This document shows positions 31,992-37,518 of a stretch of DNA of 50,416 bases, in pieces (position 1 is the stretch's first letter; every line of letters starts with the position of its first letter). Location: positions 1-50,416 of the IMG/VR virus record IMGVR_UViG_3300033145_001556; one strand, 5' to 3'. Below the pieces are notes generated by a model that was not told the origin of the DNA, made no database searches, and was given only the letters and a program-made list of their open reading frames with translations. Origin of the DNA: a virus (Duplodnaviria > Caudoviricetes). The translations under genes were made by a program, and so were the position numbers.

Positions 31992-33641
31992 CTACTGCTG
32001 CGCGGCCGGCTGCTTCAGCCAGGCGCTGGCCTGTTGGATCTGATCGGCCCGGTCCTGGCCGTCGAAGCCCTTCCGGTTGGAGCACAGGTAGGACACGGCC
32101 TTCTCGATGCGGTTGCGCCCGGCGTAGCTCTGGCTGAGCATCTCGGAGCTGTTCGGGTCGGGCTCCGTGCCGGCGCGCTGCTGGCTCGCCGTGATGGGGC
32201 CGGTCGGCGGAGCTTGCGGGCCTTGCGGCGCTGCGGTTGCGGCCCCGCCGAGCTGGGTGCCGTTCGGGCCGGCGACGATGCGGCTCGAGAGGTACTGCCG
32301 CTCCTTCTCGGGCAGCGGGTAGTGCTCGCGGAACTTCGCGAGCTTCACCTCGTCGACCGTGCCGTCGCCCTGGAGGCAGGCGCGCCTGGAGCTCTGGATG
32401 CCGGGCAGCAGCCGGGAGCAGAGCTGCTTGTCGTTGCCCGACAGGTGAGCCGCCACCGCCTCGGCCTCCGCGTCGGCCTCGGTCTCGTTGACCGCGCCCA
32501 GCTTGCTGAGGGCGTCGTTGAGGGCCGTCACCATCGTGTCGGCCTTCTTGGCGTCCGCGATGGCCGTGGTCGCCTTGGCCAGGACGTCGGTGAAGTCCTT
32601 GCTCTCGAACAGCTGGAGCAGCTGGTTCAGGGCGTCCTGCGACTCGTTGCTCTGCTCGACGGCCTTCTCGGCCGCGGCCAGGATGGCGTCGTCCTTGTCT
32701 CGGCAACCCAGGATCGTGGCGAGCTTGGCGGTGAGTTGGGTGGCTTCCATTTCGGTCTCCGCAGTCGGTGGCTCGGGGGACTGGGTCGCGTCTGACCCAC
32801 CCCCTTGAGATACCAGACCACTGAGCATCCGAACAGCTTCGGCGAAGATCTCCTCCCGGGTGGCCAGGGTCCTGAGGCCCAAGAGCCCCCGGATGTTGGA
32901 GACGAGGTACTCCGGCTCGAGCCAGCTGGGAGCGGTGCCGTCGACCAGCATCCGCTGGAATTGCTCGAGCTCCACCAGCACTGCCGCGGCGTCGGCTTCG
33001 GCGCCCAGGCCGAAGATGTCCCGCAGGCCGACGACCGCCTCTTCCGGGGATTCCGCCTCGCCCCACACGCTCACGCTGGCCGCGATCCGCTCCAGGCCTT
33101 GGATGAAGGGGTGGTTGGTCAGAGCCACTGAGGTCAGCACTGGCCCGATTGCCTTGCCGCTCACGGGGTCTTTGCCGTTGGGCCAGACGCAGACGCTGGT
33201 GTTCTCGTAGGCCCCGGAGCGGACCTGCTCGAGGGCGGCCGGAAGGAACTCCGTCAGGGCCCAGAGTTGGGCCGTCCCGTCCGGAGCGTCCCGGACCTCG
33301 AGGTCCAGCACCCAGCCCGCCGCGGGCGCTCCTTGCTGCGGGACGCTGCCCCGGGTGGGGTCCATCTCGGACGCGTGCTCGTAGTCGTACGGCACGACGT
33401 GAGACATGCCGACACCGTTCGCCCCGGCCTCGTAGTCGGGGTGGGAGTGGAGGTTCGCGACCACCGCGTCGAACACCTCGCGCCGGAAGTCGACCACCGG
33501 GTGCATGGGGTGGCCGCGGTAGACACCCTCGAGGGCGACGTTCACCCAGACTGGGGAGGCGTCCTGGCTCTGGTCCACCGACAGGCGGACTCCACGACCG
33601 AATTGGGGGCGACCGAGGGGCTGAGCTTTGCGTGCGGCCAT
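31992..33641 (-). CDS. Prohead protease/scaffold (Mu gpI-like)
   Basis: PYDYEHAS, PAAGWV and LTSVALTNHPFI; helical scaffold-like C-terminus. Confidence 0.92.
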   Translation of the reverse strand: MAARKAQPLGRPQFGRGVRLSVDQSQDASPVWVNVALEGVYRGHPMHPVVDFRREVFDAVVANLHSHPDYEAGANGVGMSHVVPYDYEHASEMDPTRGSVPQQGAPAAGWVLDLEVRDAPDGTAQLWALTEFLPAALEQVRSGAYENTSVCVWPNGKDPVSGKAIGPVLTSVALTNHPFIQGLERIAASVSVWGEAESPEEAVVGLRDIFGLGAEADAAAVLVELEQFQRMLVDGTAPSWLEPEYLVSNIRGLLGLRTLATREEIFAEAVRMLSGLVSQGGGSDATQSPEPPTAETEMEATQLTAKLATILGCRDKDDAILAAAEKAVEQSNESQDALNQLLQLFESKDFTDVLAKATTAIADAKKADTMVTALNDALSKLGAVNETEADAEAEAVAAHLSGNDKQLCSRLLPGIQSSRRACLQGDGTVDEVKLAKFREHYPLPEKERQYLSSRIVAGPNGTQLGGAATAAPQGPQAPPTGPITASQQRAGTEPDPNSSEMLSQSYAGRNRIEKAVSYLCSNRKGFDGQDRADQIQQASAWLKQPAAQQ

Positions 33642-33749
33642 GCCCTCAGGATAGGGGGCGGCCGTCGGGAAGGCTACTCAGGCGTTCAGTTGCAACATCC
33701 TGAATCACTGGGCAGCTTCGCTGACCAGGAGAGGGAAGAGAGCAAGCGG

Positions 33750-34703
33750 ATGCACGTCAAGCAGGTGATAGACTGTGCGCACCGTTGTTCGTCCATATCC
33801 GAGCTGCTGGTGGGGTTGGCTCCGGAGGACAGCCGATGGGCGCCGCACGCTCGCGATTGGCTCTTTCGCGGGCACGGATCTCGGGAGTATCGCCTCGTGG
33901 CAACCGCCTTTCGCGCGAAGAGTTGGGTGCCTTTCGGAGTCGGAGGGAAGGTCTTCGACCCTACAAAGGCAACCAGCAGGAAGGAGCAGGAAAGCGCAGA
34001 GCGGGAAGTGCTCGCGCGCTTCTACGACGTCGCGAACGCGGCGGGGCTTCCACTACCCGGCGATCCTGCCACGCTGGTGATGCTGAGGAGCGCGTTCTTC
34101 CGCCCGGGGATGAACGGAGATGACGAGTGGCCGACACCGGAATGTGTACCGCTGCTGGCAGTCGCGCAGCACTACGGGGTTCCCACACGGCTGCTTGACT
34201 GGACGCGGTCTCCCCTAGCCGCGGCGTACTTCGCTGCAGACAGCGCTTCGCGGCGTGAGGTCGACGGTAAGGACTACCTTGACATCTGGGCCGTCCGTGA
34301 GTCGGTCCTGCGACGGTGCTTGAAGCGAAGTGGGATCGGTGGTGCGCGGTGGGATCTGGCTGAGGTGCCTGAATCCGCGAACGAGAACCTGCACGCACAA
34401 CGCGGGTTGTTCGCTGTGCTGCGCGGGGAGCCGCGACGCGCCAGGGATGGGCTGCAGCTCGACGACTACGTTGGGTTCCTGGGGTCGGTCCACCAGCAGG
34501 TGCCGAGCGCACCGCAGTTGACCCTTCCCGCCATGCGTCGCATCAGTCTTCCGGCGGCGATGGCGCCTGAACTCCTCATGGCGTTGGAGGCGAGAGGTAT
34601 TTCGGGTGCGAGCATCTTCCCGGGCTTCTCAGGGGTGGTGCGCGCAATGAAGGAGCGATCCTTCTACTTGCCCGACTACCCACCCGAGGTCTCCAGCGCC
34701 TAG
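33750..34703 (+). CDS. FRG-domain protein (moron)
   Basis: WLFRGH, AQHYGVPTRLLDWTRSPLAAAYFA, NLHAQRGLF, GISGASIFPG; opposite strand to the head operon. Confidence 0.9.
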   Translation: MHVKQVIDCAHRCSSISELLVGLAPEDSRWAPHARDWLFRGHGSREYRLVATAFRAKSWVPFGVGGKVFDPTKATSRKEQESAEREVLARFYDVANAAGLPLPGDPATLVMLRSAFFRPGMNGDDEWPTPECVPLLAVAQHYGVPTRLLDWTRSPLAAAYFAADSASRREVDGKDYLDIWAVRESVLRRCLKRSGIGGARWDLAEVPESANENLHAQRGLFAVLRGEPRRARDGLQLDDYVGFLGSVHQQVPSAPQLTLPAMRRISLPAAMAPELLMALEARGISGASIFPGFSGVVRAMKERSFYLPDYPPEVSSA

Positions 34704-34714
34704 AAGACCAGGGA

Positions 34715-34918
34715 CTAGTCTTCCCGCCCCTCGAACGCTTCCAGCACGTCCCGGTACTGCGCCATCGCCTCGCGCCACTCGCCGTACTCGTCGCCGGCGG
34801 CCTCGAATGCCTGCTTCTCGAGCTCGGTGAGCTTCGCCAGCGTGAGCTTGCCGGCGCTAAAGAGTTCGCTCGCCTCGCGCATGACGGGGTTCAGCTTGTC
34901 GAAGTCGGGCTTGGCCAT
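34715..34918 (-). CDS. Small acidic helical protein; putative immunity protein for the MuF toxin
   Basis: 67 aa; starts 2 nt after the MuF stop. Confidence 0.6.
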   Translation of the reverse strand: MAKPDFDKLNPVMREASELFSAGKLTLAKLTELEKQAFEAAGDEYGEWREAMAQYRDVLEAFEGRED

Positions 34919-34920
34919 GG

Positions 34921-37518
34921 CTACTGACCCAGTCTGCGGATTTCTCGGACGCGTTCAACCATGTCGAAGGCTCCCGCGTCCCGAGCGCGCAGGACGGCCT
35001 TGTCCGTGTGGTACAGCGAGAAGGACTCAGCAAAGTACTCCGCGGGGTCCTGCTCCGCGTACGCGCTGACGCGGTGGGCCGCGCTGCCCTCGCGGCGGAT
35101 GTAGGCGCGCTGGATTGCGTGGTCGACCTGCTGCCACTCCTCGGTGCTCCCCGCGTAGTCCACGCCGCCGGCGCCGAGCTTGCGCCCGCGCATGTGCACC
35201 TCGTGACCGATCTCGTGGAAGGTCGACCGCCGGATCGCCTCCAGCTCGGTCTCGGCCGCCTCGGCCACGTTGAACAGCGCCGGACTGTCGGCGGTGAGTG
35301 CGCCGCGCCCGAAGGGGACGTTGCCGGTGCGGATCTTCATCTGCGCGCGGAGAGTCTGGTTGCCGAGCTGGACCTCCGGGTACCAGCAGCCCGAGCAGCC
35401 GTGTGGCATCGAGTTGCTGACTCGGCGGGAGTTGTTGGCCACGCGCTTCGTGAAGAGCAGGCGCTCGAGGGGCGACTCTTCCAGGAAGCGCAGGGCTCCC
35501 GCCTCGTTGAACGTGCTCATCACCGCGTCGTGCTCGCGCTTGCGGCGGAGCTTGCCCTGGATCCTCGCGAAGTGGCGGCCCTGCTCCGGCATCCCGGGGC
35601 GCGGTCGCGGCGGCGTCGGTACCGGTGGCGGCCGCGGCGGTGCAGATCCACCTCCGCCAGGTGGTGCAGCGGGTGGTGGCTGCCCTCCGCCTGCCGGCGC
35701 CGGCGGCGTCGACGGGATGGCGACGTCGCCCCCTCCGATGAGCCCGGTGGTGCCGGAGTCGAAGCCCGGGTCCGGGAGTTCGGTCGGCGCCGGGCCGATG
35801 GTGGCGCCCGTCTTGTCGACCCAGCGCTTCGAGCGCGAGATGACGCGGCAGCGGCAGTTGCTCGAGACAACGCCGTTCGCTACGATCCACCCGAGTGGCG
35901 ATTCGACGTCATACACATGGCCGCGAAACTCGAACTTCCGGACGCTGACCACCTGGTCGAGCGCTACCTGCGAGGGGTATCGCTGAAGCAGCTCGCGAGC
36001 GAGCGCAGCGTCAGCCGGCCGACCCTCGGTCGCATCCTTGAGGAGCACGGCGTCAAACTGCGAGGCCGTCCCGAGGCGGAGCGTCTGAAGTGGCGCGGCA
36101 TCAAGGGAAACAAGGCCGCCGTCGAGCGGCAATGCTCGGCCGCCTGGGCCAAGTCTCGCGGGCGCGACGTCCCCGTCCTCGAGCGACGAAAGCGAGCCCG
36201 CACCCACGCCCGGCGGCAGACTCGGCTCGGACTCTTCGAGGACGAGTTGGCTGGTCACATCGGCCACCGCGGCCTGGTGGTGCTGCAGCAGGCGCCAGTA
36301 GGACCCTACAACGTGGACTTCGCCTTCAAAGCAGCGCGCCTCGCCGTGGAACTCTTCACCTCGATAGCCGGTGAAGCTGCCACTGCCCGCTTCCGCGAGC
36401 GTACGGAATACCTGCTCGACTCGGGTTGGTGCCTGCTGATCGTCAGTCTCCGCACCGGGCCCCAGCGCGCCGACCCGGGTCTCAGCGACGTGGCAGACCA
36501 GGTGTTCGCCCTGCACGAGCGACTGCGCAGTGGTGAAGCCCTGCACGGTCAGTACGGGGTGATTGGCCGTCACGGTCAGCCGACGACCTACTGCAGTCGT
36601 GAGCTCGACGGCCTCCCCCGCATACCAGGCCTTTGACGCCCCGCAGACTTGGCCCGTGATCTCGGTGCCGGGCAGGAAGCAGTTGTAGCCGAAGGGCGGG
36701 TAGGCATCGCGCCAGAAGGGGTGGTCCGCGGGCAGGATGATCCCGTTGGCCGCCCGGTGCGTCTCGCGCTGCCGGTCATCCCGGACGGTCTGGACCTGCC
36801 AGTAGGGTCGAGCCGCGAGCACCGCGGGCTGGGTCATCTCCGCGAAGCGCCCCGACGAGTAGGCACTCCCCACGTTGGTGCGGAAGATGGTCTCGACGTG
36901 GCTCCGGTTGGCAGGCGTCCACCCAGCGCTTTCGAGTCGGGTGCGGACGTGCTTCTTGAACTCGCGGAAGTTGGGGCCCTTGTAGACCCACTTGTCCGTC
37001 GTCGGGTCCTTGTAGGTGCGCTCGCCAGACTGCCGCACCTGGCGGGCGAGTTCGCCGTGCGCCGTCTGCAGTAGCTCCTGCCGTGCCAGGCCCGCCACCG
37101 TGAAGGCCCGGCGCTTCGCGCCTGCCCGCAGGGCGTCGAACTGCTCCTTGGGCAGGATGGTGCGCGACTCGAACAGGCGCACCGCCTCCGCGTAGGGCGT
37201 CGACGCGAACGGACCGCGATCCCGCTTGAAGAGCACCTTGCTCGCAGTGAATGCGGGGAGCGGGATCTCCTCCTCGTGCTCACGCTCCCAGAGGCTGTCG
37301 AGGGCGCCGAGCATGACGCCGTGGAGGAGCTGCTGCTCAGCGAGTTCGGCGAAGCGCTCGAGGGGGAGCTGGTCCTCGATGCGGTTGAGTGCAGCCTTGA
37401 TGGCGGCCTCGCTGTCCTTGCCGTCGACGGCCTTGACGACCTGGTCGACCCACCGCTCGAGCTCGCGCGCTCCCGCGTCGACGCCAGACTCGACCAGGGT
37501 CTCGGGCGAGCCGTTCAC
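34921..37518 (-). CDS. MuF (Mu gp30/SPP1 gp7) minor head protein with intein, Pro-rich linker and C-terminal HExxH metallopeptidase; true start uncertain (frame open upstream to the portal slippery site)
   Basis: AFTVAG, TIFRTN, DDRQRETH, DHPFW...PPFGYN|intein|CRC; C-terminal HEIGH...SAYAEQDPAEYFAESF. Confidence 0.9.
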   Translation of the reverse strand: MNGSPETLVESGVDAGARELERWVDQVVKAVDGKDSEAAIKAALNRIEDQLPLERFAELAEQQLLHGVMLGALDSLWEREHEEEIPLPAFTASKVLFKRDRGPFASTPYAEAVRLFESRTILPKEQFDALRAGAKRRAFTVAGLARQELLQTAHGELARQVRQSGERTYKDPTTDKWVYKGPNFREFKKHVRTRLESAGWTPANRSHVETIFRTNVGSAYSSGRFAEMTQPAVLAARPYWQVQTVRDDRQRETHRAANGIILPADHPFWRDAYPPFGYNCFLPGTEITGQVCGASKAWYAGEAVELTTAVGRRLTVTANHPVLTVQGFTTAQSLVQGEHLVCHVAETRVGALGPGAETDDQQAPTRVEQVFRTLAEAGSGSFTGYRGEEFHGEARCFEGEVHVVGSYWRLLQHHQAAVADVTSQLVLEESEPSLPPGVGAGSLSSLEDGDVAPARLGPGGRALPLDGGLVSLDAAPLQTLRLGTASQFDAVLLKDATEGRPADAALARELLQRYPSQVALDQVVSVRKFEFRGHVYDVESPLGWIVANGVVSSNCRCRVISRSKRWVDKTGATIGPAPTELPDPGFDSGTTGLIGGGDVAIPSTPPAPAGGGQPPPAAPPGGGGSAPPRPPPVPTPPRPRPGMPEQGRHFARIQGKLRRKREHDAVMSTFNEAGALRFLEESPLERLLFTKRVANNSRRVSNSMPHGCSGCWYPEVQLGNQTLRAQMKIRTGNVPFGRGALTADSPALFNVAEAAETELEAIRRSTFHEIGHEVHMRGRKLGAGGVDYAGSTEEWQQVDHAIQRAYIRREGSAAHRVSAYAEQDPAEYFAESFSLYHTDKAVLRARDAGAFDMVERVREIRRLGQ
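35858..35886 (+). promoter_or_regulatory. Candidate sigma70 promoter for the antisense endonuclease gene
   Basis: TTGCTC (35858-63), 17-nt spacer, TACGAT (35881-86); 30 nt upstream of ATG 35917. Confidence 0.45.
35917..36636 (+). CDS. HTH + DUF559/Vsr-like endonuclease encoded antisense within the intein (239 aa)
   Basis: HTH-like LVERYLRGVSLKQLASERSVSRPTLGRILEEHGV; nuclease-like QAPVGPYNVDFAF...RLAVEL...RTEYLLDSGWCLLIV. Confidence 0.75.
   Translation: MAAKLELPDADHLVERYLRGVSLKQLASERSVSRPTLGRILEEHGVKLRGRPEAERLKWRGIKGNKAAVERQCSAAWAKSRGRDVPVLERRKRARTHARRQTRLGLFEDELAGHIGHRGLVVLQQAPVGPYNVDFAFKAARLAVELFTSIAGEAATARFRERTEYLLDSGWCLLIVSLRTGPQRADPGLSDVADQVFALHERLRSGEALHGQYGVIGRHGQPTTYCSRELDGLPRIPGL

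What the first reader, a model, noticed from the sequence alone, without database searches (positions are those of the whole stretch)
35857..36681. Intein whose homing-endonuclease-like gene is encoded on the opposite strand
Seen: the - strand has complete splicing blocks A, B, F and G, but the intein interior has no LAGLIDADG or HNH motif and reads like shadow sequence. The same DNA on + (35917-36636, codon-aligned) encodes an HTH followed by a DUF559/Vsr-like domain (QAPVGPYNVDF...LAVE...L..SGW.LL). Its ATG is the complement of the block-F His codon, and its C-terminus overlaps block B. Knowledge: intein endonucleases are normally in-frame parts of the intein polypeptide; I know of no description of an antisense-encoded one. 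Inference: a two-strand selfish element in which splicing and homing are separately expressed, possibly from inverted insertion of an endonuclease gene, tolerated because antisense frames stay open in GC-rich DNA. Caveat: the usual ExDG..H motif is degenerate (ELFTS), so the nuclease may be decayed.
Basis: partly seen in the sequence, partly recalled or inferred. Interest (0 to 1): 0.92.

Follow-up and report, generated by a model that had tools for sequence, protein, structure and literature searches.

The report
Intein with backwards-encoded homing nuclease gene
A self-splicing protein insert (intein) in this phage's head-assembly gene carries a real, conserved DNA-cutting enzyme gene on the opposite DNA strand, but a 2025 preprint already described this layout, so this is a clean new example and not a new kind of element.

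Summary
The minus-strand MuF-like gene (34921-37518) contains a 275-aa intein (35857-36681). The plus strand, in exact codon register, encodes a 239-aa protein (35917-36639) with an HTH followed by a Vsr/DUF559-like nuclease. This is not a shadow ORF. The AF2 model has pLDDT 95, and its best PDB fold match is the homing endonuclease I-Bth0305I. All 85 related loci examined keep both frames open, including loci at 42-43% GC. Within the intein interior, codon changes that are silent for the nuclease but change the intein outnumber the reverse by 105:24 and 1453:501. The ratio flips where the nuclease tail overlaps splicing blocks A/B. Related Pseudomonas phages either carry the intein or lack exactly the intein-sized stretch.

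Gosselin, Arsenault and Gogarten (bioRxiv 10.1101/2025.01.02.630785) describe anti-sense VSR-like endonucleases in full inteins of actinophages, with minor capsid proteins among the four hosts of non-canonical endonucleases. This scan has also flagged the same layout on other DNA (196 notes).

Details the main text of that preprint does not mention:
- The family occurs far beyond actinophages.
- A promoter-like pair, a Shine-Dalgarno and the start codon are overprinted on block F/G codons.

This window has the promoter-like pair and the ATG but no Shine-Dalgarno. Expression and cleavage remain untested.

The parts
34921..37518 (-). MuF-like minor head protein gene (865 aa) interrupted by the intein
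   Evidence: ORF. Pfam Phage_Mu_F E 1.4e-13, 52 bits against cut-off 29.6. phrog_220 'minor head protein and DNA pilot' E 8e-44. A Mu-type portal gene lies directly upstream on the same strand.
36682..37518 (-). N-extein (279 aa) ending ...YPPFGYN
   Evidence: The Phage_Mu_F match ends at residue 280 of the precursor. The junction N|C is seen.
35857..36681 (-). Intein, 275 aa: Cys1 ... Ser274-Asn275, followed by Cys+1 (CRC)
   Evidence: Intein_splicing E 2.3e-07. The 56-sequence profile hits solved inteins at E 7.5e-10. In the AF2 model, pLDDT is above 90 for roughly residues 1-60 and 221-275 (10-residue block means), while the interior blocks 61-220 average 43-87.
36547..36570 (-). Intein block B (TANHPVLT, residues 38-45), mirrored on the plus strand by nuclease residues 211-218 (GQYGVIGR)
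   Evidence: H41 is invariant and T38, P42 and T45 are nearly invariant in 56 inteins.
35857..35919 (-). Intein blocks F/G (HVYDVESPLGWIVANGVVSSN)
   Evidence: In 53 of 57 distinct related loci the distance from this His to the terminal Asn is 20 codons, and in 4 it is 21.
34924..35856 (-). C-extein (311 aa): Pro/Gly-rich linker and a metallopeptidase-like end (HEIGH)
   Evidence: Weak Pfam matches, both below cut-off: ATLF E 6.9e-05 and Peptidase_M90 E 3.4e-04. This is context only and not part of the mobile element.
35917..36639 (+). Antisense homing-endonuclease gene, 239 aa plus TGA stop, lying wholly inside the intein
   Evidence: AF2 with 66 relatives: pLDDT 95.1, pTM 0.80, 218 of 239 residues at 90 or above. 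85 of 85 related loci have it open.
35947..36084 (+). Helix-turn-helix DNA-binding domain (residues 11-56)
   Evidence: Pfam HTH_58 E 2.2e-05, above cut-off. 36 of 66 relatives match HTH_58. Helices 10-18, 23-30 and 34-43 in the model.
36229..36516 (+). Vsr/DUF559-like nuclease core (residues 105-200), with candidate active-site residues E108 (36238-36240), D134 (36316-36318) and E145 (36349-36351)
   Evidence: The profile hits PDB 3hrl (DUF559) at E 6.8e-06 over positions 104-199. Foldseek PDB: 3r3p I-Bth0305I ranks first (E 7e-3, prob 1.00, TM 0.62 normalised by target), then Vsr 1vsr/1cw0 and 3hrl. D134 is kept in 72/73, E145 in 71/73 and E108 in 71/73 distinct sequences.
36532..36633 (+). 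Nuclease C-terminal tail (residues 206-239) overprinted on intein blocks A/B
   Evidence: In this stretch the sense (intein) frame is the more constrained one. Sense aa identity is 0.51 against 0.33 for the nuclease frame. Single-base changes are 131 (nuclease-silent) against 247 (intein-silent).
35858..35886 (+). Promoter-like pair TTGCTC-N17-TACGAT inside the codons for IVANGVVSSN, ending 30 nt before the ATG
   Evidence: Sequence. It scores only 7 of 12 consensus matches and is not called by the promoter scan. At family level, TTG at -59 together with TAnnnT at -36 occurs in 22 of 53 loci, against 2.1 expected when the intein's codons are resampled synonymously.

Best explanation
This is a mobile intein in the conserved N|C(R/K)C site of a phage MuF head protein. 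Its homing endonuclease is a separate gene on the opposite strand, read codon against codon.

The minus strand is translated as part of MuF. The Hint domain (blocks A, B, F, G) then splices itself out. The roughly 160-residue sense interior is mostly a stop-free linker.

The plus strand of that interior encodes an HTH + Vsr-like (PD-(D/E)xK-type) nuclease. By analogy with I-Bth0305I, this nuclease would cut intein-less MuF alleles of co-infecting or resident phages, and recombinational repair would then copy the intein and nuclease gene together.

The nuclease gene lies entirely within the intein. In many relatives its promoter-like elements, Shine-Dalgarno and start codon are written into the block F/G codons, so the element carries its own expression signals.

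What is shown: both genes exist; the nuclease frame is under purifying selection in the interior; the intein frame is under purifying selection at the ends; relatives show precise presence/absence of the intein.

What is inferred: transcription and translation of the nuclease in this phage, DNA cleavage, the target site, and protein splicing.
For: Domains and fold:
- HTH_58, DUF559 and MTES_1575 match on the plus frame. Among 66 relatives, 42 match MTES_1575, 36 HTH_58 and 20 DUF559.
- The profile hits the DUF559 structure 3hrl at E 6.8e-06.
- AF2 pLDDT is 95.1.
- The top PDB fold hits are I-Bth0305I, Vsr and 3hrl. Nine phage proteins in BFVD match at E<=1e-3; the five with names are endonuclease-like, DNA mismatch endonuclease, DUF559 and Gp525.

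Sense interior:
- It has no domain match and low-to-moderate AF2 confidence.

Conservation of the layout:
- tblastn finds the nuclease in 42 phage records. In 4 of 4 records inspected it is antisense to the MuF CDS and is not annotated.
- 100 IMG/VR relatives were found and 80 kept.
- In 85 of 85 loci the codon-aligned opposite frame is open across the whole match.
- 64 distinct inteins had recognisable C...N|C ends.
- 10 of 10 N-exteins tested match Phage_Mu_F at E<=1e-3, 4 of them above cut-off.

Stop avoidance at low GC:
- P is 4e-4 to 1e-6 for Aaphi23 and 4e-5 to 8e-9 for L036. 12 of 73 loci have P<0.01.

Selection:
- Interior single-base codon differences that are silent in the nuclease but change the intein, against the reverse: 105:24 (7 close pairs) and 1453:501 (45 pairs). 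The neutral expectation is 106:106.
- The ratio reverses to 131:247 in the tail over blocks A/B.
- Window against its four nearest relatives: 40:18, 35:14, 25:10 and 22:14.
- R162 is kept in 72/73 through four codons, while the sense residue varies among T, S and A.
- In the window, sense GC3 falls from 0.88-0.91 in the exteins to 0.74 in the interior, where nuclease-frame GC3 is 0.79.

Expression signals:
- The start codon is the complement of the block-F His in 57 distinct loci.
- The Leu codon four codons after that His is CTC in 44 of 47 loci, against a background of 0.335. On the other strand this gives GGAG ending 9 nt before the ATG.
- GGAG is seen in 35 of 53 loci against 12.4 expected. 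TAnnnT is seen in 27 of 53 against 4.6 expected.

Containment:
- The nuclease stop lies 3-24 codons inside Cys1 in the 63 of 69 distinct loci where it could be placed.

Mobility:
- 14 Pseudomonas phage records carry an identical intein. 25 records with 95.0-97.6% identical exteins lack an intein-sized stretch: the 1826-nt query spans 1014-1019 nt of the record.
- The junction was checked in phi297, which reads GNSIN|CKCSQ.
Against: - No transcript or protein evidence exists. No sequencing run could be listed.
- The consensus promoter scan finds nothing in 35400-37000 or 33000-36000. The window's candidate matches only 7 of 12 consensus positions.
- The window has no Shine-Dalgarno before the ATG; the sense sequence is DVE rather than DLQ.
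- The His general base and following Asp of the Vsr/EDxHD active site (described in PMC3239194, passages) are not conserved in this family, so the chemistry is unproven.
- Foldseek E-values against PDB are weak (best 7e-3, none at or below 1e-3).
- No close relative of this window's own MuF was found, so presence/absence could not be shown in its own lineage.
- The pairwise counts use non-independent pairs, and the alignment was made in the nuclease frame.
- Part of the sense interior (residues 81-140) has moderate pLDDT (63-87), so a structural role for it is not excluded.
Confidence: 0.82

Rival explanations
1. The gene is real as a family, but in this particular phage it is a silent or decaying copy. 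The intein persists by vertical inheritance because it cannot be lost without breaking MuF, and the antisense ORF stays open only because GC-rich DNA rarely makes stops.
For: - The window lacks the GGAG that 35 of 53 relatives have.
- Its promoter-like pair is weak and is not called by the scan.
- An open frame here has a chance probability of 0.5-0.7.
- Consensus Ser52 is Pro in the window.
- No intein-less close relative was found.
- The preprint reports that some VSR-like HEN inteins show vertical-looking patterns (section 15).
Against: - The window keeps 20 of the 21 invariant or nearly invariant family positions, including E108, D134, E145 and R162.
- Comparisons of the window with its four nearest relatives still show an excess of nuclease-silent changes in the interior: 40:18, 35:14, 25:10 and 22:14.
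- The model folds with pLDDT 95.
Confidence: 0.1
2. The antisense protein is functional but is not, or is no longer, a homing nuclease. It could be, for example, an HTH DNA-binding regulator or a nickase with another role in phage replication or in competition between phages.
For: - The family lacks the His/Asp part of the Vsr/EDxHD motif and the DG..H of DUF559.
- The HTH region is the best-conserved part relative to its shadow frame: 0.41 against 0.26 aa identity.
Against: - Acidic residues typical of a PD-(D/E)xK-type site (E108, D134, E145) are kept in 71-72 of 73 sequences.
- In all 85 loci fetched the protein lies inside an open antisense frame. In every locus where the ends could be read (64 distinct inteins), that frame is an intein at the same MuF site.
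- Relatives show exact intein presence/absence, which is what homing predicts.
Confidence: 0.06
3. The plus-strand ORF is a shadow of the intein reading frame, and its domain hits are chance.
For: - High GC makes long antisense frames common; the plus frame is open for 542 codons, well beyond the intein.
- Single-sequence Pfam E-values are modest.
Against: - Three independent domain families match.
- The profile-to-PDB hit has E 6.8e-06.
- AF2 pLDDT is 95, against 43-87 block means for the sense interior.
- The frame is open at 42-43% GC.
- Synonymous-change asymmetry favours the plus frame.
- Arg162 is kept through four codons while the sense residue changes.
Confidence: 0.02

Closest known systems
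Anti-sense VSR-like homing endonucleases inside full inteins of actinobacteriophages (Gosselin, Arsenault, Gogarten, bioRxiv 10.1101/2025.01.02.630785; abstract, sections 3, 8, 15 and 28 and passages read)
   Different: The preprint surveys PhagesDB actinophages only and calls the architecture rare. Here the window is an uncultivated virus record. Relatives also occur in phages of Pseudomonas, Aggregatibacter/Haemophilus, Cronobacter, Vibrio, Idiomarinaceae and Klebsiella, and the profile finds 1574 cluster representatives at E<=1e-30. The preprint's main text has no occurrence of 'start codon', 'block F', 'promoter' or 'Pseudomonas'. Its supplements could not be opened and may hold more.
I-Bth0305I and the EDxHD family of Vsr-like homing endonucleases (PMC3239194, passages read); 'fractured genes' with split inteins and a free-standing Vsr-like HEG (PMC2677866, abstract and passages)
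   Same: An N-terminal HTH/NUMOD-type DNA-binding region followed by a C-terminal Vsr-like nuclease domain. Phage-borne and associated with self-splicing elements. 3r3p is the best PDB fold match.
   Different: I-Bth0305I sits in a group I intron, and the fractured-gene HEGs lie between two split-intein halves. Here the intein is contiguous and the HEG is antisense and dual-coding. The His and the last Asp of EDxHD are not conserved here. The sequence profile does not reach 3r3p at E<=1.
Antisense LAGLIDADG endonuclease ORFs in inteins (Synechocystis DnaX and Chloroflexus SpoVR-like, as cited by the preprint from Gorbalenya 1998 and Gogarten 2002; those papers were not seen by me)
   Same: An endonuclease gene on the strand opposite the intein.
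   Different: A different nuclease family (LAGLIDADG against Vsr-like) and different host genes.
DUF559 / Vsr very-short-patch repair endonucleases (Pfam PF04480; PDB 3hrl, 1vsr, 1cw0)
   Same: Same core fold: TM 0.74 to 3hrl and 0.57 to 1vsr, normalised by target. The Asp on strand 2 and the Glu on strand 3 align.
   Different: The DG..H that follows the Glu in DUF559 is missing. There is an extra N-terminal HTH and helical linker. The window's Pfam score is 20.4, just under the 20.6 cut-off.
Canonical bifunctional inteins with an in-frame LAGLIDADG or HNH domain (for example PI-MtuI and PI-PkoII among the PDB hits)
   Same: The Hint splicing domain and the predicted homing life cycle.
   Different: In those inteins the nuclease is part of the intein polypeptide. 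Here it is a separate protein made from the other strand.

Membership tests
Intein (class 1 Hint domain) | N-terminal Cys/Ser, block B TxxH, C-terminal Asn, and a +1 Cys/Ser/Thr nucleophile | tested here: met
   Cys1, T38-x-x-H41, Asn275 and Cys+1 are present. C1, H41 and N275 are invariant in 56 relatives.
Intein (class 1 Hint domain) | Sequence or fold match to the Hint/intein splicing domain | tested here: met
   The single sequence scores 31.2 bits on Pfam Intein_splicing, below the 35.8 cut-off. The 56-sequence profile hits solved inteins at E 7.5e-10 to 1e-5. AF2 gives pLDDT above 90 for both Hint halves.
Intein (class 1 Hint domain) | Penultimate His before the terminal Asn | tested here: not met
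   The window has Ser274-Asn275. Most relatives also end in SN and some in HN. From recall, inteins without this His are known to splice.
Intein (class 1 Hint domain) | Protein splicing activity | not testable with these tools
   This needs an expression and splicing assay.
Phage MuF / SPP1 gp7 minor head protein | Pfam Phage_Mu_F domain above the gathering score, with the gene next to the portal gene | tested here: met
   52 bits against 29.6. Portal_Mu at E 7.7e-49 in the adjacent upstream gene.
Anti-sense VSR-like HEN intein (class of the 2025 preprint) | A contiguous intein, a complete HEN ORF on the antisense strand inside it, and a Vsr-like fold for that ORF | tested here: met
   The ORF start lies 60 nt inside the C-terminal intein boundary, and the last base of its stop codon lies 42 nt inside the N-terminal boundary.
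EDxHD homing endonucleases (I-Bth0305I) | Vsr-like catalytic domain preceded by an HTH/NUMOD DNA-binding region | tested here: met
   HTH_58 at residues 11-56. 3r3p is the top Foldseek hit, with prob 1.00 and E 7e-3.
EDxHD homing endonucleases (I-Bth0305I) | Composite motif E, D, x, H, D, including the His general base (PMC3239194) | tested here: not met
   E108 and D134 are conserved, but no His or following Asp is conserved at 90% or above in 66 sequences. The window reads VELFTSIAG after E145. The residue-by-residue structural superposition was not available to me.
DUF559 (PF04480) | Score above the Pfam gathering cut-off, and the ExDGxxH motif | tested here: not met
   20.4 bits against 20.6. 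20 of 66 relatives match at E<=0.01. In the alignment to 3hrl, the family has 'VEvvgsn' where 3hrl has 'VEADGGQH'.
Homing endonuclease (functional class) | The element is present or absent at exactly the same site among close relatives | tested here: inconclusive
   Met for relatives in Pseudomonas phages: 14 records carry the intein and 25 lack an intein-sized stretch. The junction was confirmed in phi297. Not testable for the window's own lineage because no close MuF relative was found.
Homing endonuclease (functional class) | Site-specific cleavage of the empty allele | not testable with these tools
   This needs a biochemical assay.

The most novel reading that the evidence does not exclude
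The intein and its backwards nuclease gene form one self-contained, two-strand mobile unit. The nuclease's whole expression cassette is overprinted on the intein's own splice-motif codons. That cassette comprises a sigma-70-like -35/-10 pair, a GGAG ribosome-binding site made by the codon pair CTC-CAR for Leu-Gln, and a start codon made by the complement of a His codon.

On this reading, synonymous codon choice in blocks F/G is dictated by the other strand. The layout would have a single origin (the same register in 85 of 85 loci) and would have been maintained by selection on both strands. It would span phages of Actinobacteria and Proteobacteria and more than 1500 protein clusters at 50% identity, making it a common but almost never annotated gene, not a rarity.
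Probability: 0.55. Interest if true: 0.6.

Novelty: new member of a known kind. Interest (0 to 1): 0.35.

Why it matters
The gene is real and conserved, but gene callers do not annotate it. None of the four GenBank phage records I inspected lists it.

It is a clear natural case of long antisense dual coding, about 720 nt. The strand under stronger selection switches along the element: the nuclease frame in the interior and the intein frame at the ends.

It supports the idea that inteins can acquire free-standing homing endonuclease genes, as the 2025 preprint argues. The expression signals embedded in splice-motif codons, if confirmed, would explain how the nuclease is made independently of the late structural gene.

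Practically, the family offers compact HTH + Vsr-like nucleases with a defined candidate target: the MuF N|CRC site.

None of this is new in kind. The architecture is in the 2025 preprint, and this scan has met it many times before (196 notes).

Tried and rejected
- Shadow-ORF explanation: rejected.
- 'Tolerated because of GC-rich DNA': rejected as a general explanation, because both frames are also kept open at 42-43% GC.
- Consensus promoter/terminator scans of 35400-37000 and 33000-36000 found no promoter-like site. They found only two overlapping minus-strand terminator-like hairpins at 36115-36132, no more than shuffles give.
- I first read the family alignment as showing no promoter. Apart from two-fold-degenerate codons, only position -12 stood out among sense third positions.
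- RNA evidence: no RNA holder was listed and no run of any kind was listed.
- The search for related loci in genome contigs with the nuclease gave no confirmed relative among 327 candidate stretches. With alignment A1 it could not build patterns.
- Searching IMG/VR with the N-extein gave one weak partial match. Presence/absence in the window's own lineage therefore could not be tested.
- The word-index protein search found only 5 called proteins. The full HMM search found thousands. That they sit in inteins is inferred from the block-B-mirror tail motif, present in 108 of 151 by a strict pattern.
- Literature: 'intein + MuF + antisense' returned 13 unrelated papers. 'intein + homing endonuclease + opposite strand' returned 41 papers; the one I opened was irrelevant. 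'intein + Aaphi23' returned 1 irrelevant paper. 'inteins + anti-sense strand + endonuclease' returned only the preprint. 'intein + DUF559' returned 1 paper, which I did not open.
They may already list details given here.

Full report
WHAT IS THERE

The window is a whole uncultivated virus record of 50,416 bases, estimated 92% complete.

On the minus strand, a Mu-type portal gene (Portal_Mu, E 7.7e-49) is followed by an 865-aa ORF at 34921..37518. That ORF matches Phage_Mu_F at 52 bits against a cut-off of 29.6, and phrog_220 'minor head protein and DNA pilot' at E 8e-44.

At 35857-36681 this ORF contains a 275-aa intein:
- It begins CFLPGTEI after ...YPPFGYN.
- Block B is TANHPVLT.
- Blocks F/G are GHVYDVESPLGWIVANGVVSSN.
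- It is followed by CRC.

A profile of 56 such inteins hits solved inteins at E down to 7.5e-10. The matches fall only within profile positions about 7-80 and 211-273. The sense interior has no LAGLIDADG, HNH or other match.

On the plus strand, 35917-36636 reads as a 239-aa protein. It matches HTH_58 (E 2.2e-05, above cut-off), DUF559 (20.4 bits against 20.6) and MTES_1575.

The two frames are codon-aligned, so nuclease residue h lies opposite intein residue 256-h. Three consequences follow directly from the sequence:
- The ATG is the complement of the His codon of GHVYD.
- Nuclease residues 211-218 mirror block B.
- The TGA stop lies opposite Ser15 of the intein.

IS THE ANTISENSE GENE REAL?

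In this window alone the open frame proves nothing. At 68% GC, and with the codon usage of the rest of the gene, the chance that it stays open is 0.5-0.7. The plus frame in fact runs open for 542 codons. The case rests on five other lines of evidence.

1. Structure.
- With 66 relatives as the alignment, AlphaFold2 gives the antisense protein a mean pLDDT of 95.1 and pTM of 0.80. 218 of 239 residues score 90 or above.
- The sense intein, modelled with 56 relatives, is confident only in its two Hint halves. Block means are above 90 for roughly residues 1-60 and 221-275, and 43-87 for residues 61-220.
- The best PDB fold matches of the antisense model are the catalytic domain of the homing endonuclease I-Bth0305I (3r3p; prob 1.00, E 7e-3), Vsr (1vsr, 1cw0) and the DUF559 protein 3hrl. 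No PDB match reaches E 1e-3.
- A sequence profile of the family reaches 3hrl at E 6.8e-06.
- Nine phage proteins in BFVD match at E<=1e-3. The five that carry names are endonuclease-like, DNA mismatch endonuclease, DUF559 and Gp525.

2. Conservation of the layout.
- tblastn of the antisense protein finds 42 phage records. The hosts are Pseudomonas 15, Gordonia 14, and Vibrio, Haemophilus, Aggregatibacter, Idiomarinaceae and Rhodococcus 2 each, plus Mycobacterium, Cronobacter and Klebsiella 1 each.
- In the four records I opened (Aaphi23, vB_Pae_BR313c, ES2, Fosterous) the match is antisense to the annotated MuF/minor head CDS. No antisense gene is annotated in any of them.
- IMG/VR gave 100 further relatives, of which 80 were kept.
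- In 85 of 85 loci the codon-aligned opposite frame is open across the whole match, always in the same register.
- 64 distinct loci had recognisable intein ends, C...N followed by C(R/K/H)C in nearly all.
- 10 of 10 N-exteins tested match Phage_Mu_F at E<=1e-3, 4 of them above cut-off. Two are portal-MuF fusions.

3. Stop avoidance where it is costly.
- In Aaphi23 (42% GC in this stretch) the chance that the antisense frame stays open is 4e-4 by stop density in the rest of the gene, and 1e-6 by Leu/Ser codon usage.
- In L036 (43% GC) the figures are 4e-5 and 8e-9.
- 12 of 73 distinct loci have P<0.01.

4. Which frame is selected?
- I took aligned codons that differ by a single base and sorted them by whether the change is silent in each frame.
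- In nuclease residues 1-180, changes silent in the nuclease but not in the intein outnumber the reverse by 105:24 in 7 close pairs and 1453:501 in 45 pairs of 45-60% identity. Uniform single-base change would give 106:106.
- In the tail (residues 206-239, over blocks A/B) the ratio reverses to 131:247.
- The window against its four nearest relatives gives 40:18, 35:14, 25:10 and 22:14 in the interior.
- Amino-acid identity tells the same story. In the 30-50% identity band, nuclease against sense identity is 0.41/0.26 in the HTH, 0.32/0.18 in the linker, 0.35/0.28 in the core and 0.33/0.51 in the tail.
- Arg162 is kept in 72 of 73 sequences through four different codons, while the opposite sense residue varies among Thr, Ser and Ala. 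D134 (72/73), E145 (71/73) and E108 (71/73) are kept while the sense residue alternates Val/Ile or Phe/Leu.
- Caveats: the pairs are not independent, and the alignment was made in the nuclease frame. The reversal in the tail acts as an internal control.

5. The window's own composition.
- Sense-frame GC3 is 0.88-0.91 in the exteins but 0.74 in the interior. There the nuclease-frame GC3 is 0.79.

EXPRESSION SIGNALS

In 57 distinct loci the nuclease start (ATG, sometimes GTG) is the complement of the His that precedes VYD. Another 21 loci, not de-duplicated, did not fit my pattern.

The Leu codon four codons after that His is CTC in 44 of 47 loci, against a background share of 0.335 in the same ORFs. 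Read on the other strand with the following Gln codon, this gives GGAG ending 9 nt before the ATG.

I then resampled the 21 codons upstream of the start (the block F/G codons plus Cys+1) synonymously, using each locus's own codon usage. Results for 53 loci:

| Feature | Observed | Expected |
|---|---|---|
| GGAG | 35 | 12.4 |
| TAnnnT at -36..-31 | 27 | 4.6 |
| TTG at -59..-57 | 35 | 23.7 |
| TTG and TAnnnT together (17-nt spacing) | 22 | 2.1 |

The window has TTGCTC-N17-TACGAT at 35858-35886. It matches only 7 of 12 consensus positions and the promoter scan does not call it. The window has no GGAG, because its sense sequence is DVE rather than DLQ.

The nuclease start lies 60-63 nt inside the C-terminal intein boundary. 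Its stop lies 3-24 codons inside Cys1 in the 63 of 69 distinct loci where I could place it. The whole gene therefore travels with the intein.

No sequencing run could be listed for this stretch, so expression is untested.

MOBILITY

The window's own MuF has no close relative in IMG/VR. In Pseudomonas phages the pattern is clear:
- Of 40 records matching the vB_Pae_BR313c MuF region, 14 carry an identical intein.
- One further record is cut by its end.
- 25 have exteins 95.0-97.6% identical but span 1014-1019 nt where the query spans 1826 nt. The gap equals the 807-nt intein.

I checked the junction only in phi297. Its protein is 98% identical and reads GNSIN|CKCSQ, with the 269 intein residues missing and nothing else changed. 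This is what homing, or precise loss, predicts.

ACTIVE SITE

The family keeps E108, Q125, N132, D134, E145 and R162 in 90% or more of 66 sequences. The window keeps 20 of the 21 invariant or nearly invariant positions; only consensus Ser52 differs, being Pro.

The family lacks two things:
- the DG..H that follows the Glu in DUF559 (alignment to 3hrl);
- the conserved His general base and the following Asp of the Vsr/EDxHD motif described for I-Bth0305I (PMC3239194, passages).

I therefore file it as Vsr-like in fold and domain order, but not as a proven EDxHD member. The missing motif is a family trait, not decay in this copy.

WHAT IS KNOWN

A full-text search led to Gosselin, Arsenault and Gogarten (bioRxiv 10.1101/2025.01.02.630785, version dated 2025-10-20). 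I read the abstract, sections 3, 8, 15 and 28, and passages. The preprint reports:
- It describes 'anti-sense VSR-like HEN' ORFs within full inteins of actinobacteriophages (its Figure 3C).
- It lists minor capsid among the four host protein types with non-canonical HENs.
- It states that minor capsid inteins carry only non-canonical HENs.
- It cites antisense LAGLIDADG HENs in inteins from 1998 and 2002.

The Vsr-like HEN family itself was defined from fractured genes (PMC2677866) and from I-Bth0305I (PMC3239194).

The preprint's main text does not contain 'start codon', 'block F', 'promoter' or 'Pseudomonas'.

Other searches found nothing further in print.

This scan has noted the same layout on other DNA. 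196 notes in at least 160 genomes hold the search words. They include notes on the overprinted ribosome-binding site and promoter.

A profile search of 1.84 billion cluster representatives finds 20,470 proteins at E<=1e-3, 4,530 at E<=1e-10 and 1,574 at E<=1e-30. Of the 151 proteins I held (the best 150 hits plus P0005), 108 carry the tail motif that mirrors block B.

VERDICT

It is wrong on novelty and on the GC-richness argument.

This is a new member of a known kind. The added value here is threefold:
- breadth beyond actinophages;
- a quantitative demonstration that selection switches strands along the element;
- family-level evidence for expression signals written into splice-motif codons.

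This last point was also reached in earlier notes of this scan.

Whether this particular copy is expressed and active remains open, because it has no Shine-Dalgarno and only a weak promoter-like pair.

Noticed in passing
window 34924-35856 (-) and 34715-34918 (-): The C-extein of MuF carries a Pro/Gly-rich linker and a metallopeptidase-like end (HEIGH). Its Pfam matches are weak and below cut-off: ATLF E 6.9e-05 and Peptidase_M90 E 3.4e-04. It is followed by a 67-aa acidic ORF with no Pfam match.
   Followed up: partly
window 33267-34703 (+): An FRG-domain protein gene (Pfam FRG E 9.3e-17) converges on the 3' end of the MuF operon. No terminator-like site lies between it and the antisense nuclease gene. 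Read-through transcription into the nuclease gene is conceivable but untested.
   Followed up: partly
L039 3787-6204 (-) and L018 870-3476 (-): In two IMG/VR relatives the intein-bearing MuF domain is fused to a portal domain in one ORF. Phage_portal scores E 9.6e-38 and 7.8e-28, and Phage_Mu_F matches in the same protein.
   Followed up: no
window intein residues 81-140 (about 36262-36441, -): Part of the sense 'linker' is predicted with moderate confidence (pLDDT 63-87, helices and strands). It shows a conserved sense motif (..IE.VF.AL...DFHGD..G.I.VV) that is the mirror of the nuclease's YNxD/AVE core. This could be covariation leaking from the other frame into the model, or it could be a real structural element of the intein. 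I could not tell which.
   Followed up: no
L004 2336-3178 (+), L001 2324-3220 (+), and proteins P0007-P0152: Many relatives carry one to three extra N-terminal HTH repeats: lengths of 285-420 aa and 2-4 matched stretches, and two HTH units in Fosterous and Aaphi23. The DNA-binding part of the nuclease therefore expands by repeat duplication while remaining inside the intein.
   Followed up: no
phage records (H18, H21, H35, H36): Gordonia phages Affeca, Angelicage, Sedona and Keitabear give antisense Vsr-like matches under their MuF genes. The preprint's text names the same four phages (spelling the second 'Angelicase') as a cluster of endonuclease VII-like HEN inteins (section 15). Whether these are two inteins or elements in one gene, or a difference in classification, was not checked.
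   Followed up: no
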